DNA of 44,504 nucleotides from a phage. Where the stretch lies: the sequence record PZ386946.1, one strand, 5' to 3'. Shown piece by piece: positions 19,936 to 37,164 of this stretch. A program made the position numbers and the translations under genes. Under the pieces are notes generated by a model. The model was not told the DNA's origin. It ran no database searches and saw only the letters and a program-made list of their open reading frames with translations. Numbering within the stretch: position 1 is the stretch's first letter; each line of letters starts with the position of its first letter.

Positions 19936-20040
19936 TTAGAAACCGTTAAAATTCGAAGCCAGCAGCAGAACCCACACGAAGAAACCAGTTACAGCAGCGC
20001 CAGCGACCAGAGCGATTGAGTTGTTGATTAAGTTAGTCAT
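19936..20040 (-). CDS. small hydrophobic peptide (34 aa)
   Basis: not in ORF track (<60 aa); MTNLINNSIALVAGAAVTGFFVWVLLLASNFNGF, single predicted TM helix; downstream of minus-strand bipartite motif, stop abuts Cor-like start. Confidence 0.3.
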   Translation of the reverse strand: MTNLINNSIALVAGAAVTGFFVWVLLLASNFNGF

Positions 20041-20080
20041 TTTGTATCCCTTATTAAGTATGTTTCGTTTCGATGGAGTA

Positions 20081-20127
20081 ACTATAGCAAAGGCCGCTGC
20101 GGGAGTCTTTAGCAATTCGTGCTATTT
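20081..20127 (-). promoter_or_regulatory. bipartite motif copy, minus orientation
   Basis: reverse complement of AATAGCACGAATTGCTAAAG...TATAGTTACTCCATCGAAACGAAAC; precedes 34-aa ORF and Cor-like gene. Confidence 0.5.
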
Positions 20128-20203
20128 GATATACGCGTAACTGATGTAACTCGATGTATACAATCTCATCAGCGGAAAATGATATACGCACTGTTACGCC
20201 AGT

Positions 20204-20291
20204 TTACGCATTGGTTACATTAAAATATCTATATATATCAACCTTTTACTCTTATTATTATTATTATATATATTGCTGTGTATATCATGTA
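20204..20291. repeat. AT-rich repeat element, copy A (contains (TTA)5 microsatellite)
   Basis: about 88 bp closely matching 39031..39117 (TTACGCA.TGGTTACA...ATATCTATATATA...(TTA)n...TATAT...GTGTATAT.ATGTA). Confidence 0.7.
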
Positions 20292-20410
20292 ACTACTTCT
20301 ATAGAGTGTTCCGGTTATAATTTTAATATCATGTGGATTTATACAGTATTGCGCGGCAGCTACACCAATGCACCCTCCGCAATAAATGATATACACGATA
20401 TACACACTAT

Positions 20411-20425
20411 TTACATTGAGCTATA
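20411..20425. repeat. short direct repeat TTACATTGAGCTATA, copy A
   Basis: identical 15-mer at 39256..39270, at similar distance downstream of the AT-rich element in both hubs. Confidence 0.6.
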
Positions 20426-20589
20426 GCTGGTATGAGATGCTAAAAAACGTAACAAGTGCCAATGTCCACACGTAATTACAATGATTCACGCGTAAACTTG
20501 AATCAACGATTGGCAAAACCAATTGGACTGGCTACGGTACCGAATATATAGTTAACCCATCGAAAGCAAACAACCAGAGAGATACAGAA

Positions 20590-20784
20590 ATGACCTACTA
20601 CATTATCAAAGAGAAAAACAACGCACTGTTCGGAGACTGCTACTTTGGTGGCCCCGCTGGGTACACCACGAATAAGAGCGAGGCAGACAGATTTGAGACT
20701 AAAGAGGAAGCCAGGGATGTACTGAACGGATACTTCACTGAAGAAGATTTGAAGTCTGTTAAAGTAGTTAAGGTTAAGGAGTAA
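20590..20784 (+). CDS. hypothetical protein
   Basis: 64 aa ORF, first plus-strand gene after AT-rich hub A. Confidence 0.45.
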   Translation: MTYYIIKEKNNALFGDCYFGGPAGYTTNKSEADRFETKEEARDVLNGYFTEEDLKSVKVVKVKE

Positions 20785-22711: not shown

Positions 22712-23134
22712 ATGCCACACGTAATTACTGGTCAGATCCGCAAGGCACCATTCACTAAGGAAGGCAGCAACAATAACGGGCGATGGAAAATGTACGCAGT
22801 AGAACTATCTGAACGCATGAAGATTAGAAATCAGAATGGCGAGGATGAGACGGTTTACAGTAACTACCGATCCACTTTCTTCGCAAAGGAAAATGTCATG
22901 GCATGGTATGACGATGCGTTCCAGGAAGGTAAGGTTGTTTCAATTTCTGCTGACACACTTCACTTGTCGTCACGCCAGGGTAATGACGGGAATGTTTACG
23001 TCACCGCTGAAATGATACGACCTCAGTTGCAATTCAGCCAGCGTGAACCAGCGCAGCAGCATCAGAAGCAACCGCAACCGCAGCAGCAGCAACCGCAGAA
23101 GCAAAGTCAATTCAACGATGACATCCCATTCTGA
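22712..23134 (+). CDS. ssb: single-stranded DNA-binding protein
   Basis: 140 aa; OB-fold-like N-terminal region, Gln/Pro-rich linker and acidic C-terminal tail ending DDIPF as in bacterial/phage SSB. Confidence 0.8.
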   Translation: MPHVITGQIRKAPFTKEGSNNNGRWKMYAVELSERMKIRNQNGEDETVYSNYRSTFFAKENVMAWYDDAFQEGKVVSISADTLHLSSRQGNDGNVYVTAEMIRPQLQFSQREPAQQHQKQPQPQQQQPQKQSQFNDDIPF

Positions 23135-26832: not shown

Positions 26833-27306
26833 TTACTCTTTAGCTTTTCGTGCTGCCTCATTGGCGGCTTTAATTTTGCGCCAGGATCGGCACTCAGGCT
26901 TAGTAGCCAGCTCAGCTTCTGTTACCACGCGCAGCATATGACGCTTTTTGCATCGCAGCGTAAGCGGCTTTCCGTTGCCATCGAATTGCAGATCCGGTCG
27001 GCAGAATGTGGCTCGAAAACCTTCTCCATTTCTTTTGTAGTAGTTGTGTGACAGCTGAGCTCCACGTGCAGAAATCATACCACGCTTAAACCATTCTTCT
27101 ACAGCCTGAGGAGTTACCTTTAACTGCTTCGCAATGTTTGCCTTTGTGCCGAAGAAATCAAGAACCATCTCTAGCCGTGCGCGTAGCCCGGCTCTTACTT
27201 CATCTTTTAAAACGTAGTAACCTGAAGGTCGTTTTCGTTGTTTTTTGTCTTCAGTGCGGACGGTTCCGTTATTGCCGTTAATGGTGCGCTTGTCAACTGC
27301 ATTCAT
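26833..27306 (-). CDS. HTH DNA-binding protein (putative transcriptional regulator)
   Basis: start ATG 27306 with GAGGT RBS (track start 27342); helix-turn-helix-like IAKQLKVTPQAVEEWFKRG; basic termini. Confidence 0.5.
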   Translation of the reverse strand: MNAVDKRTINGNNGTVRTEDKKQRKRPSGYYVLKDEVRAGLRARLEMVLDFFGTKANIAKQLKVTPQAVEEWFKRGMISARGAQLSHNYYKRNGEGFRATFCRPDLQFDGNGKPLTLRCKKRHMLRVVTEAELATKPECRSWRKIKAANEAARKAKE

Positions 27307-27407
27307 TTCATTACCTCGATAGCATTTTTTGTTAAAAGTCATTCTGATTTGATGGTAGTATTGTACTCAATTAAACGCTACAAGACAATTTTTATAGGAA
27401 TTTAGAT

Positions 27408-35580: not shown

Positions 35581-37164
35581 TCACCCCAATAGTCTTGGAT
35601 TAATGTAAACTTTATCACCAATCAGGCAAGTATAGTTTTTCTCATCAAGCATTGGCAGCAAGTGATCTTTAATCTTCGTCATTACTCCCGCTTGAGCCTC
35701 GAACGGCTTAACCTTTCGAGCCGCTTCATACAACGAACGAATGCCTACTACTCCTTTCCCGTTTTTGCCTTGCTTAATCAGAATGTCAATCAGCTTGTTC
35801 ATCTCGGCATTGTCTCCAGCGTGACCAGCCGCGTTGGCAGATGACAAATAAGTCTTGCTAAGTTCCTGGAACATAATTACAGCTTCCTGCATTGTATCAA
35901 GCTCAATTTCTCTCGACTTCTGAGGGCTACCGCCATTTGGGTTGAACCAGTTGCGCACAGTGTGAAGAACGGCCGCAATCCTGATTGCCTGCTTATCGAA
36001 CTTACCAAGCGCGCCGCGCAACATTGTGTGGGAATACTTACCGCCGTCCGCAAGGTGAGGTTCCATTTCCTGACGCGCGCGGTTGAGATATTTCATTGCT
36101 GAATTACTAACTGTCAACTTAACTTCTTGCTCATTCATTATCTCGTGAACTAAACGGAAGTAATCAGCCTTCAACCCGCCATCAATTGGTTCATAAGTCG
36201 ATTCGCCATTTTCATCAACGAATACACGCTCGCCCAGGAATGACTTTTCACGTACAAGCAGGAAACGCTCAGATACACCGATACCACGCGCGCCAGCGTT
36301 CATGATAGCGTTGATTGTCTCATCCTGTGCAATTACAGAGATGCAACCCATAGCAACGAAACTCATGTTGTTTTCTGCGTTCGCACGCGCGATAGATACG
36401 TTACCCGCATCCCATGCTTTAAGCACAAGCTCACTGTTCGTTTTCTTTGATCCGTCACCATAGGTCATGCCTAATAGTGAGTTAACGCTAGTTGCTTCGT
36501 CAGAAATTACCGCGAAGCTTCCCTGGCGGTTGTTTATTCGCGCAAGACCTTCAGGTGTGGTATCGGACACGGGGAAAACGATATCGCACAGCTTTTCCAG
36601 TTTTTCCTCTAGCTCTTCTTTTTCCTCGAAAAGAGAAGCCATCTCTGACGGAGATTTTTCCTGCTTCATCTCTTTGGATAACGCAGATAGTTTAGCCATG
36701 ATTTTCTTGCGCTCACGCTTTCGCACTTCATTCAGTCTCTCAGTCTCGGCAATCATTGGTGCAATTGAAAGTGAGTTAATGGCTGACTTACCAGTCGATG
36801 GAGGCTGACTTGTAACTACGTACAGAGACGTAGGCTGCTGAGTTCCATGATACTCAACTGTAAAGCGTCCCAGCATGGCAGCGGAAATACACCCCAGGAA
36901 GTGCATATAAGCTGAAGACTCAGGGAACTGAACCGAGCGAGCGATGTTAGATGAGAGTTTTCCGACAATATCAACATCATTGCCTAGTGAGATTACGGGA
37001 TACTTGTCATTAGCCGCATCAATCTCGACTGGCGCTTTCCAGAATGATTGAGACTGGCGATAGCCATTAGCATTGATAGCGACGCGCAGTGGTGGGAGGT
37101 TGTCTGCGGCAGCGATTGCCATAACCTGTTCAACAGATAGTTTATCTTCGTTGAAATCAAACAT
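35581..37164 (-). CDS. DUF3987-like P-loop NTPase with C-terminal wHTH-like domain (putative replication/recombination ATPase)
   Basis: 527 aa; Walker A-like VTSQPPSTGKSA, Walker B-like FAVISDEATS, central coiled-coil, C-terminal GKNGKGVVGIRSLYEAARKV; N- and C-terminal ends shared with ORF 39916..40461. Confidence 0.55.
   Translation of the reverse strand: MFDFNEDKLSVEQVMAIAAADNLPPLRVAINANGYRQSQSFWKAPVEIDAANDKYPVISLGNDVDIVGKLSSNIARSVQFPESSAYMHFLGCISAAMLGRFTVEYHGTQQPTSLYVVTSQPPSTGKSAINSLSIAPMIAETERLNEVRKRERKKIMAKLSALSKEMKQEKSPSEMASLFEEKEELEEKLEKLCDIVFPVSDTTPEGLARINNRQGSFAVISDEATSVNSLLGMTYGDGSKKTNSELVLKAWDAGNVSIARANAENNMSFVAMGCISVIAQDETINAIMNAGARGIGVSERFLLVREKSFLGERVFVDENGESTYEPIDGGLKADYFRLVHEIMNEQEVKLTVSNSAMKYLNRARQEMEPHLADGGKYSHTMLRGALGKFDKQAIRIAAVLHTVRNWFNPNGGSPQKSREIELDTMQEAVIMFQELSKTYLSSANAAGHAGDNAEMNKLIDILIKQGKNGKGVVGIRSLYEAARKVKPFEAQAGVMTKIKDHLLPMLDEKNYTCLIGDKVYINPRLLG

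What the first reader, a model, noticed from the sequence alone, without database searches (positions are those of the whole stretch)
20100..20590. AT-rich divergent control hub A with iteron-like GATATACRC repeats and a (TTA)n microsatellite
About 490 bp of non-coding DNA separates the minus-strand cor-like operon from the plus-strand early genes. It contains four GATATACRC repeats (near 20129, 20181, 20389, 20398), a (TTA)5 microsatellite, and an approximately 88-bp element repeated at 39031..39117. Iterons plus AT-rich DNA at a divergent promoter region fit an origin of replication or a dense operator cluster. The microsatellite could vary by slipped-strand mispairing.
Basis: partly seen in the sequence, partly recalled or inferred. 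Interest (0 to 1): 0.6.

Follow-up and report, generated by a model that had tools for sequence, protein, structure and literature searches.

The report
Candidate replication origin of a T1-like phage
This 550-bp gap between genes in a T1-like coliphage holds two outward promoters and, between them, an unusually conserved module of short phased repeats around an easily melted AT-rich core that occurs twice per genome across the phage family, which makes it the best candidate yet for the still-unmapped replication origin of T1-type phages, although a purely transcriptional control role is not excluded.

Summary
GATATACRC occurs 5 times (4 direct, 1 inverted), all within 20128-20405 and nowhere else in 44.5 kb. 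(TTA)5 is present, and an 88-bp block is 83% identical to 39031-39117.

The window is a complete Drexlerviridae (Braunvirinae) genome. Hub A (20041-20589) consists of:
- a leftward promoter of the family's known 21-nt direct-repeat type;
- a rightward sigma-70-like promoter;
- a ~390-bp central module, paralogous to one in the second large intergenic region (hub B).

The module has TACGC-type repeats phased at 10-11 bp. They abut a fixed-length core that is 88% AT and holds the genome's only exact IHF consensus, with an inverted repeat copy on the far side. The left half of the module is better conserved than the neighbouring genes.

The two AT cores are the least stable duplex segments in five genomes from three lineages. 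Each lineage has its own flanking repeat word, and the two copies within a genome resemble each other more than orthologues do.

The TTA run does not vary: 23 of 24 sequences have identical length.

Best reading (about 0.45): an origin-like assembly site, possibly bound by the winged-helix tail of the phage helicase. Main rival (about 0.3): an operator or architectural hub for early promoters. No experiment decides between them yet.

The parts
20041..20589 (.). Hub A: the whole non-coding interval between the minus-strand 34-codon ORF / Cor operon and the plus-strand orf64-orf65-exoVIII-Erf-SSB operon
   Evidence: Frame-breaking 1-2 bp indels in relatives rule out the 90-aa ORF at 20154-20426.
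20061..20125 (-). Leftward promoter-leader cassette of the Drexlerviridae direct-repeat (DR) type: DR ATAGCACGAATTGCTAAAG at 20125->20107, -35 AAGACT at 20109->20104, 17-nt spacer, -10 TATAGT at 20086->20081, leader CATCGAAACGA
   Evidence: It matches the TLS consensus aaATAGCACnnnTTGnTAAAA (PMC11447400). The window holds about 16 copies.
20128..20136 (+). GATATACGC copy 1. The full 9-mer is specific to this phage; relatives keep only ATACRC followed by GTAAC.
20134..20166 (.). Near-invariant arm CGTAACYGATGTAACTCGATGTATACAATCT: two GTAAC words plus GATGTATAC, forming a dyad with 20181-20210
20181..20220 (+). Phased repeat array GATATACGC / GTTACGC / TTTACGC / GTTACAT. The TACRY cores sit at 20185, 20195, 20205 and 20216 (spacing 10, 10, 11 bp) and abut the AT core. 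The repeats are conserved in relatives while the spacers between them vary.
   Evidence: Hub B has the same arrangement at 39013, 39022, 39033 and 39044.
20219..20275 (.). AT-rich core, 88% AT. It is the second least stable duplex segment of the genome; the hub B core is the first.
   Evidence: It is invariant in 14 relatives.
20236..20248 (+). TATCAACCTTTTA, the only exact match in the window to the IHF core consensus WATCAANNNNTTR, preceded by an A/T tract
   Evidence: It is conserved in relatives, and hub B has a one-mismatch version at the same place. Actual IHF binding is inferred.
20252..20267 (.). (TTA)5 run, a fixed-length AT spacer
   Evidence: 23 of 24 sequences are identical in length.
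20278..20293 (-). GTGTATATCATGTAAC: an inverted GATATACAC copy plus GTAAC on the far side of the AT core, 41 bp from the IHF-like core in both hub A and hub B
   Evidence: (inverted repeats I3, I6, I7).
20294..20349 (.). Near-invariant block of unknown role. It includes GGTTATAAT (20313-20321) and CATGTGGATTTATACAG.
   Evidence: No RNA-structure signal (z = 0.06).
20388..20405 (+). Tandem GATATACAC GATATACAC (copies 4 and 5). Hub B has TGATGTACAAGCTGTACAC at the homologous place.
20408..20430 (.). Conserved island TTTACATTGAGCTATAGCTGG, shared with hub B (39254-39276) and recognisable in T1 hub A
20447..20497 (.). Short conserved islands (CGTAAC, CACG..ATTAC, CACGCGTAA) separated by variable spacers, upstream of the rightward promoter
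20524..20589 (+). Rightward sigma-70-like promoter (TGGACT, 17-nt spacer, TATAGT at 20547-20552) plus a leader with CATCGAAAG and the ribosome-binding site before the ATG at 20590
   Evidence: This is a prediction only.
38957..39298 (+). Paralogous central module in hub B: phased TACGC-type array, IHF-like AACAACCATTTAG, (TTA)9, inverted GTGTATAT, and the TTTACATTGAGCTATA island
35581..37164 (-). DUF3987-family helicase whose last 63 residues are homologous to the modelled winged-helix domain. This is a candidate binder of the repeats (inferred).
39916..40461 (+). 181-aa paralogue of that helicase without the helicase core (N-terminal 42 aa plus C-terminal winged helix). This is a candidate second binder or regulator (inferred).

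Best explanation
Hub A is a compound control region. Its two edges carry outward-facing promoters. On the left is a DR-type promoter for the small membrane protein and Cor operon. On the right is a sigma-70-type promoter for the recombination operon (orf64, orf65, exoVIII, Erf-like, SSB).

The ~390 bp between the promoters (20126-20522) is one of two paralogous copies per genome of an origin-like assembly site. In this model, a sequence-specific phage protein occupies the short repeats (WTACRC, including GATATACRC, plus GTAAC). These repeats are phased at about one helical turn on the left of the core and inverted on its right. The best candidate binder is the winged-helix C-terminal domain of the DUF3987 helicase. 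IHF bends the consensus site inside the core. The fixed-length, 88% AT core, which includes the (TTA)5 run, then melts. Negative supercoiling from the two diverging promoters would help the melting. The helicase and the P4-alpha-like primase would then start DNA synthesis with the host polymerase.

What is shown: the anatomy, the conservation, the paralogy, the duplex instability and the family-wide recurrence. What is inferred: protein binding, melting, and initiation of replication.
For: (1) All 5 GATATACRC sites cluster here. The wider WTACRC family is about 10-fold enriched. Its TACRY cores are spaced 10, 10 and 11 bp and abut the AT core in hub A, with a similar spacing in hub B.
(2) Footprint-like conservation: in 14 relatives the repeats are kept while the spacers between them vary. 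The left half of the module, 20134-20346, is 87-97% identical to relatives. In nearly every comparison that is higher than the flanking ORFs (79-90%; in one relative, 12397V, orf64 and orf65 are as well or better conserved).
(3) The AT cores of hubs A and B are the two least stable 40-100-bp duplex segments (z = +4.4 to +6.0; the next best is +3.0 to +3.8). This holds in this phage, JulesPiccard, T145P1, T1 and a Klebsiella Webervirus.
(4) Each lineage has its own repeat word concentrated within 250 bp of the two cores: GATATAC / GTGTATA here, TGTAACA in T1 (5 of 5 genome copies), GTAAGAT in KLPN5 (12 of 18).
(5) The two copies within a genome are more alike (92, 50 and 142 bits) than orthologous hubs in different lineages (24-33 bits). 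That is what two sites read by one co-evolving protein would show.
(6) In KLPN5 the two cores are inverted relative to each other, and hub A lies between the co-directional primase and exoVIII genes. The module therefore does not depend on a divergent-promoter setting or on orientation.
(7) The length of the AT spacer is fixed: 58 bp in 23 of 24 hub A sequences, and 41 bp from the IHF-like core to GTGTATAT in both hubs despite different TTA counts.
(8) The only exact IHF consensus in the genome lies in the core.
(9) The outer promoters already account for the flanking operons, so about 390 bp of constrained DNA is left without a role.
(10) It is not coding, because indels break the ORF. It is not a known or structured RNA.
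(12) Recent papers state that no origin has been found in T1-like phages (PMC11447400; PMC7718038).
Against: There is no experimental datum: no marker frequency, no footprint, no mapped transcription start.

The repeats are short (6-9 bp) and heterogeneous, unlike the classical 17-22-bp iterons.

No DnaA box exists anywhere in the genome. That argues only against a DnaA-dependent origin.

One IHF consensus match is not more than chance would give genome-wide (2.8 expected).

The hubs are the only two long intergenic regions, so extreme AT content and low duplex stability could simply reflect promoter or UP-element DNA.

Promoter-like hexamers do occur inside the AT core. In particular, TATACA-N16-AATAAT lies on the minus strand at the same relative position in both hubs.

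Two origins per 44-kb genome is unusual.
Confidence: 0.45

Rival explanations
1. A purely transcriptional control hub. The repeats are operators or activator sites for a phage regulator, for example the Cro-like HTH protein encoded at 26833-27342. With IHF-mediated bending or looping, this regulator switches the two outward early promoters, and those of hub B, on or off during the early-to-late transition. The AT core acts as UP-element, curved DNA or an H-NS/Fis target.
For: The region lies between two predicted outward promoters. Both hubs head early operons, so two co-regulated copies make sense. Conserved islands (CGTAAC, ATTACA, CACGCGTAA) lie 30-90 bp upstream of the rightward -35. The phage encodes a Cro-like HTH regulator. 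Lineage-specific repeats and concerted evolution of the two copies would also be expected for operator sets. Relatives often carry DNA-binding or 'regulatory' genes right next to the hub.
Against: None of the GATATACRC or TACGC sites overlaps the -35 or -10 of an outer promoter. The tandem pair at 20388-20405 lies about 120 bp upstream of the rightward -35. The best-conserved part (20134-20346) is the part farthest from both promoters. In KLPN5 the module sits between co-directional genes and in inverted orientation. The motifs are conserved whether or not the adjacent accessory DNA-binding gene is present. A fixed-length 57-bp core of 88% AT is more than UP elements need.
Confidence: 0.3
2. 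The core itself holds early promoters that overlap in divergent orientation. One candidate is the minus-strand TATACA-N16-AATAAT, which uses the TAA run as its -10. Another is the plus-strand TTTACT-N18-TATATT. These would drive extra early transcripts or a small untranslated or antisense RNA, and the repeats would be downstream roadblock or regulatory sites.
For: Promoter-like sites fall in the TTA region in both hubs, and TATACA-N16-AATAAT lies at the same relative position in each. Other annotators predicted promoters here in CEB_EC3a and AHP24. A fixed spacer length would be required if the TTA run lies between promoter elements.
Against: The number of promoter-like hits is not above the shuffled expectation (7 against 3.7 +/- 2.0 in hub A; 6 against 6.3 in hub B). 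The hexamers are weak (9 of 12), and any -35-like word next to a TAA/TTA run will score. There is no Rfam match and no structure signal for the downstream invariant block. This does not explain phased repeats on both sides or 213 bp of near-invariance.
Confidence: 0.12
3. A packaging or recombination site: a secondary pac-like site or recombination hotspot used by terminase or by the exoVIII/Erf system.
For: Hub B contains the region that corresponds to the T1 left (pac) end. Hub A sits directly upstream of the recombination genes. The left edge of the module (20132) is a junction where relatives carry different genes.
Against: The pac-associated block of hub B (38770-38870, ATTGCA/TTGCAAT repeats) is exactly the part that hub A lacks (ATTGCA occurs 0 times in hub A). 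Public genome records break in hub B, not in hub A.
Confidence: 0.05

Closest known systems
Satellite phage P4 ori plus crr (two separated cis regions carrying the short type I octamer repeats bound by the C-terminal winged-helix domain of the alpha primase-helicase)
   Same: Both have two separated non-coding regions per genome that share short (6-9 bp) repeats in both orientations. Here the primase is annotated in T1 as similar to P4-type alpha proteins. A helicase with a C-terminal winged-helix-like domain is present. The host polymerase is used.
   Different: Primase and helicase are separate genes here. The repeats have a different sequence and are heterogeneous. Each copy here has its own AT core and IHF-like site. 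Homology of the helicase to P4 alpha was not shown (DUF3987 only; no PDB sequence match). The P4 details come from my own knowledge and were not tested here.
Bacillus phage SPP1 oriL / oriR (two origin copies with initiator-binding boxes next to an AT-rich segment)
   Same: It is a virulent pac-type siphovirus with two paralogous origin-like regions far apart in the genome, each consisting of repeats plus AT-rich DNA.
   Different: There is no sequence or protein homology. One of the SPP1 copies lies inside the initiator gene, whereas both copies here are intergenic. The comparison is from memory.
Iteron-type origins with an IHF site and an unwinding element (lambda ori, pSC101, R6K gamma)
   Same: Phased direct repeats, an adjacent AT-rich easily melted segment, an IHF consensus in the AT-rich part, and transcription nearby.
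   Different: The repeats are 6-9 bp rather than about 17-22 bp. There are no DnaA boxes. The module is not inside or next to a recognisable initiator gene. There are two copies.
Drexlerviridae 21-nt intergenic direct repeats aaATAGCACnnnTTGnTAAAA (phage TLS, T1, Rtp, Rogue1; PMC11447400)
   Same: The left edge of hub A (20107-20125, minus strand) is an exact member of this family, one of about 16 in this genome.
   Different: That repeat is a promoter-associated cassette found upstream of many genes. It is not the GATATACRC / TACGC / AT-core module, which occurs only twice per genome.

Membership tests
Iteron-plus-DUE replication origin (generic) | Three or more copies of a repeat in helical phase | tested here: met
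   TACRY cores at 20185, 20195, 20205 and 20216 (spacing 10, 10, 11 bp). Hub B has them at 39013, 39022, 39033 and 39044. The repeats are conserved and the spacers vary. However, the units are only 6-9 bp long.
Iteron-plus-DUE replication origin (generic) | An adjacent AT-rich segment of low duplex stability | tested here: met
   20219-20275 is 88% AT. It ranks among the two least stable segments in five genomes.
Iteron-plus-DUE replication origin (generic) | A cognate initiator protein that binds the repeats | not testable with these tools
   Only candidates were identified: the winged-helix tail of the helicase and its 181-aa paralogue, and the Cro-like HTH protein.
Iteron-plus-DUE replication origin (generic) | Replication starts here, or the fragment confers replication | not testable with these tools
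   No data are available. Papers state that the origin of T1-like phages is unidentified.
DnaA-dependent origin (oriC-like) | A cluster of DnaA boxes TTWTNCACA | tested here: not met
   There is no exact box in the window. One-mismatch boxes number 73 against about 100 expected, and they do not cluster in the hub.
P4-type ori/crr system | Two separated cis regions sharing short repeats | tested here: met
   Hub A and hub B are paralogous and share WTACRC words.
P4-type ori/crr system | An alpha-like primase-helicase with a C-terminal origin-binding winged helix | tested here: inconclusive
Operator cluster at divergent promoters (lambda OR/OL-like) | Repeats overlap the -35/-10 of the regulated promoters | tested here: not met
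   The outer promoters are at 20081-20109 (minus strand) and 20524-20552 (plus strand). The repeats lie at 20128-20405. Promoter positions are predictions.
Operator cluster at divergent promoters (lambda OR/OL-like) | The regulator gene is adjacent and expressed from the regulated promoter | tested here: not met
   The neighbours are a 34-aa membrane ORF, Cor, and the orf64 and orf65 proteins, which have no DNA-binding signature. Some relatives do carry a DNA-binding gene next to the hub.
Contingency (phase-variable) microsatellite | Copy number differs among isolates | tested here: not met
   23 of 24 hub A sequences have (TTA)5 and identical length. The one exception differs by a net +1 bp.
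Drexlerviridae 21-nt DR promoter cassette | ATAGCAC-N3-TTG-N-TAAAR upstream of a start codon, in the direction of transcription | tested here: met
   20125->20107 matches exactly, about 66-85 nt upstream of the ATG at 20040. This applies only to the left edge of the hub.

The most novel reading that the evidence does not exclude
T1-type phages start replication at two concertedly evolving origin modules, hub A and hub B. Each is a fixed-length IHF-bent unwinding element bracketed by lineage-specific short repeats. The repeats are read by an ORC/Cdc6-like winged-helix domain fused to the C-terminus of a DUF3987 helicase. In some lineages a helicase-less paralogue (N-terminus plus winged helix, 39916-40461) acts as an origin-specific regulator or competitor, with its own GTAGGAAT sites in hub B.
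Probability: 0.2. Interest if true: 0.7.

Novelty: new member of a known kind. Interest (0 to 1): 0.55.

Why it matters
T1 is one of the seven classical T phages, and Drexlerviridae are among the commonest coliphages in phage-therapy collections and in fermentation outbreaks. Their origin of replication has still never been located. Two recent genome papers say so explicitly.

This analysis turns 'AT-rich intergenic DNA' into two defined, family-wide, ~200-350-bp candidate sites. It also supplies specific motifs and candidate binding proteins. The question can now be tested directly by marker-frequency sequencing, plasmid amplification, and EMSA or DAP-seq.

If the module proves to be regulatory instead, it would still define the master early control regions of the family. 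It is also useful for phage engineering: these are sites to keep intact, or to place on helper plasmids.

Tried and rejected
- **Protein-coding.** The 90-aa ORF at 20154-20426 (and annotated ORFs or N-terminal extensions in RobRod40, JulesPiccard and CEB_EC3a) is rejected. In relatives, 1-2-bp indels fall in the variable segments, and the extension of orf64 is closed by a stop codon in this window.
- **RNA gene.** Rfam finds only a tRNA at 43593-43667. Folding the invariant block gives z = 0.06, and folding the left arm gives z = -1.7.
- **DnaA-type origin.** There are no DnaA boxes.
- **Slipped-strand variation.** Rejected.
- **GC skew.** The cumulative skew simply follows the direction of transcription and is uninformative.
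- **Host or plasmid counterparts.** No match to the module in 5,426 E. coli genomes or in PLSDB.
- **IMG/VR scan with the 16-mer TTTACATTGAGCTATA.** This returned mostly unrelated contigs and was not useful.
- **Literature.** There is no transcription-start or origin mapping for Drexlerviridae in the searchable library. One paper offers only a GC-skew guess for Sfin-1. The T1 and Rtp genome papers are not held.
- **Sequence search of the helicase against PDB.** Nothing significant.

Full report
**What the window is.**
The 44,504-bp window is a complete genome of a T1-like coliphage (Drexlerviridae, Braunvirinae). It begins at the large terminase gene and ends with the small terminase gene. It is 88-94% identical, in patches, to phages such as JulesPiccard, T145P1, 2725-N35 and vB_EcoS-12210I. 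Gene roles were taken from the JulesPiccard and T1 annotations and from Pfam/PHROG scans.
- To the left of the finding, on the minus strand, lie a 34-codon ORF (19936-20040) and the Cor lipoprotein gene.
- To the right, on the plus strand, lie two small ORFs, then exonuclease VIII, an Erf-like annealing protein and SSB.

**Checking the observation.**
- GATATACRC has five exact matches in the whole genome, all between 20128 and 20405: four direct and one inverted at 20278-20286. About 0.54 would be expected, and no shuffle reached five.
- TRF confirms (TTA)5.3 at 20252-20267 and (TTA)9.3 at 39073-39100.
- The '88-bp element' is real: 83% identity over 88 bp. It is the best part of a ~350-bp homology between this interval (hub A) and the only other long intergenic region, 38505-39394 (hub B).
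- The non-coding interval is 549 bp, a little longer than stated.

**Anatomy: the edges.**
The left edge is a promoter-leader cassette on the minus strand:
- direct repeat ATAGCACGAATTGCTAAAG (20125->20107);
- -35 AAGACT, then a 17-nt spacer;
- -10 TATAGT (20086->20081);
- leader CATCGAAACGA.

This is an exact member of the 21-nt direct repeat described for TLS, T1, Rtp and Rogue1, whose function those authors call unknown. The window has about 16 copies. The same cassette occurs almost verbatim in an intergenic region of the T4-like Cronobacter phage GAP161.

The right edge has a sigma-70-like promoter, TGGACT-N17-TATAGT (20524-20552), followed by a similar CATCGAAAG leader. The flanking operons therefore already have promoters. 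About 390 bp between them remains to be explained.

**Anatomy: the central module.**
From left to right:
- two GTAAC words plus GATGTATAC (20134-20166);
- GATATACGC, then GTTACGC, TTTACGC and GTTACAT, whose TACRY cores lie at 20185, 20195, 20205 and 20216, roughly one helical turn apart;
- an 88% AT core (20219-20275) containing TATCAACCTTTTA and the (TTA)5 run;
- an inverted GTGTATATC-AT-GTAAC (20278-20293);
- an invariant block (to 20349);
- a right half made of short conserved islands separated by variable spacers. These include the tandem GATATACAC pair (20388-20405) and TTTACATTGAGCTATAGCTGG.

TATCAACCTTTTA is the only exact match in the genome to the IHF core consensus WATCAANNNNTTR.

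The broader word WTACRC occurs at 16.5 per kb in hub A against 1.6 per kb in the rest of the genome. GATATACRC is therefore one form of a wider repeat family.

Hub B has the same layout:
- four phased TACG/AACGC/TACGC/TACAC sites;
- an IHF-like site with one mismatch;
- a longer TTA run;
- an inverted GTGTATAT exactly 41 bp from the IHF-like core, the same distance as in hub A.

**Comparative evidence.**
1. In an alignment of 14 relatives (77-92% identical overall), 20134-20346 is nearly invariant. In the repeat array the repeats are kept while the 3-4-bp spacers vary.
2. Quantitatively, this non-coding block is 87-97% identical to relatives. The adjacent ORFs are 79-90% identical in almost all of them.
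3. Small indels in the variable segments break the 90-aa ORF, so the region is not coding.
4. Nearest-neighbour duplex stability shows the AT cores of hubs A and B to be the two least stable segments by a clear margin. This is true in this phage, JulesPiccard, T145P1 and T1, and also in a Klebsiella Webervirus whose hubs cannot be aligned with these.
5. Each lineage has its own short word concentrated around the two cores. T1 has TGTAACA (5 of 5 genome copies), and the Webervirus has GTAAGAT (12 of 18).
6. The two copies within one genome are more similar to each other (92, 50 and 142 bits) than orthologous hubs are across lineages (24-33 bits).
7. In the Webervirus the two cores are inverted relative to each other. 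Its hub A lies between the co-directional primase and exoVIII genes, so the module needs neither a divergent-promoter context nor a fixed orientation.

**The microsatellite.**
I scanned GenBank loci, IMG/VR and metagenomes with a pattern that allowed 10-40 bp between the flanking conserved words.
- Of the 24 hub A sequences found, 23 have exactly (TTA)5 and a 58-bp span.
- One has (TTA)6 with a compensating loss, for a net +1 bp.
- In hub B the TTA count ranges from 4 to 7 by the strict regex, where TRF counts 9.3 imperfect units in the window. The span stays at 46-48 bp.

The run is a length-constrained AT spacer. Slippage-driven variation is not supported.

**Candidate trans-acting factors.**
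- The phage encodes a Zn-ribbon primase, an SNF2-like helicase, a DUF3987-family helicase and a Cro-like HTH protein, but no DNA polymerase.
- The second gene to the right of hub B (39916-40461, 181 aa) turned out to be a paralogue of the DUF3987 helicase that lacks the ATPase core. Its N-terminal 42 residues are 74% identical to the helicase, and a 63-residue segment is 54% identical to the helicase C-terminus.
- Foldseek gives only non-significant hits of the same kinds.

The helicase therefore probably ends in a winged-helix domain. That makes it a reasonable, but untested, reader of the repeats.

**Interpretation.**
The evidence best fits an origin-like assembly site present twice per genome. 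Phased, lineage-specific repeats flank an IHF-bent, fixed-length unwinding element. The module sits between outward promoters whose divergent transcription would favour melting.

The main rival is an operator or architectural hub for the early promoters. It explains the two co-evolving copies and the nearby promoters equally well. It explains several things less well:
- the distance of the repeats from the promoter hexamers;
- the extreme conservation of the part farthest from the promoters;
- the independence from orientation and context seen in the Webervirus;
- the size and fixed length of the AT core.

Promoter-like hexamers inside the core keep a third reading alive, and it is also compatible with a transcription-activated origin.

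A packaging role is unlikely for hub A. The block of hub B that corresponds to the T1 pac end is exactly the part that hub A lacks.

I put the origin-like model at about 0.45, the regulatory model at about 0.30, internal promoters at about 0.12 and packaging/recombination at about 0.05.

**Novelty.**
The kind of element is familiar: repeats, an IHF site and an unwinding element. The left-edge repeat is already published. I found no description of this twice-per-genome module, and recent papers state that the origin of T1-like phages has not been found. I rate it a new member of a known kind, of moderate interest, because it makes an old open question about a classical phage directly testable.

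Noticed in passing
window 20061-20125 (minus strand); also near 1563, 8681, 21949, 25788, 29821, 30107, 33683, 37655, 38747, 40458, 41271, 42095; L056 401-483: The T1-family promoter-leader cassette AATAGCAC-N3-TTGCYAAAGAC-N17-TATAGTTA-N3-CATCGAAACGA occurs about 16 times in this genome. It is also found almost verbatim, about 77% identical over 84 bp, in an intergenic region of the T4-like Cronobacter phage GAP161 and related Enterobacter/Citrobacter myoviruses. This suggests a promoter cassette that moves between phage families.
   Followed up: partly
window 38770-38870 (left part of hub B): A near-invariant block of ATTGCA / TTGCAAT / GATTGTTGC repeats corresponds to the place where the T1 reference genome begins (coordinate 1, the start of its 2.8-kb terminal repeat, that is the pac end). 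Many GenBank records of relatives start or end at window positions ~38756-38945. This is probably the pac / terminase recognition region, and hub A has no counterpart of it.
   Followed up: partly
window 39916-40461 (+) and 35581-37164 (-): A 181-aa early protein is a 'mini' paralogue of the DUF3987 helicase. It keeps the N-terminal 42 aa (74% identity) and the C-terminal winged-helix-like 63 aa (54% identity) but lacks the ATPase core. It is present in this phage, JulesPiccard and Nouzillyvirus, and absent from T145P1, T1 and Webervirus KLPN5.
   Followed up: partly
window 39001-39008, 39163-39178, 39190-39198 (hub B): GTAGGAA(T) occurs four times in the genome, all in hub B, and two of the copies form a palindrome. 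Relatives that lack the mini-helicase paralogue keep only one clear copy, so this may be that protein's own site set.
   Followed up: partly
window ~20132 (left boundary of the module); L001, L002, L003, L030-L033: Relatives carry different genes inserted at this boundary or just right of the hub: a Dcm-like methyltransferase (JeanPiccard), a ~215-aa DNA-binding / KilA-type protein (CEB_EC3a, ZL19, AugustePiccard, TR2) and a 'regulatory protein' (AHP24). The central module stays intact, so the boundary is a recombination junction for accessory genes.
   Followed up: partly
L042 (Klebsiella phage KLPN5) 29992-30092 and 45118-45218: In this Webervirus the two AT cores share 139 bp at 85% identity in inverted orientation. 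One lies between the co-directional primase and exoVIII genes, surrounded by about 10 GTAAGAT/ATCTTAC repeats.
   Followed up: partly
window 27343-27407: Only 65 bp separate the divergent Cro-like regulator and SNF2-like helicase genes. The stretch contains a DR-like ATAGCATTTTTTGTTAAAA and a TATAGGAAT word that resembles the hub B GTAGGAAT motif.
   Followed up: no
window 23049-23103: An imperfect CAGCAG / 21-bp tandem repeat lies inside the 3' part of the SSB gene (22712-23134), probably encoding a Gln/Ala-rich linker.
   Followed up: no
window 43593-43667: A single tRNA gene (Rfam tRNA, 58.5 bits) lies among the small early genes. Relatives annotate a tRNA-Arg(AGA) there.
   Followed up: no
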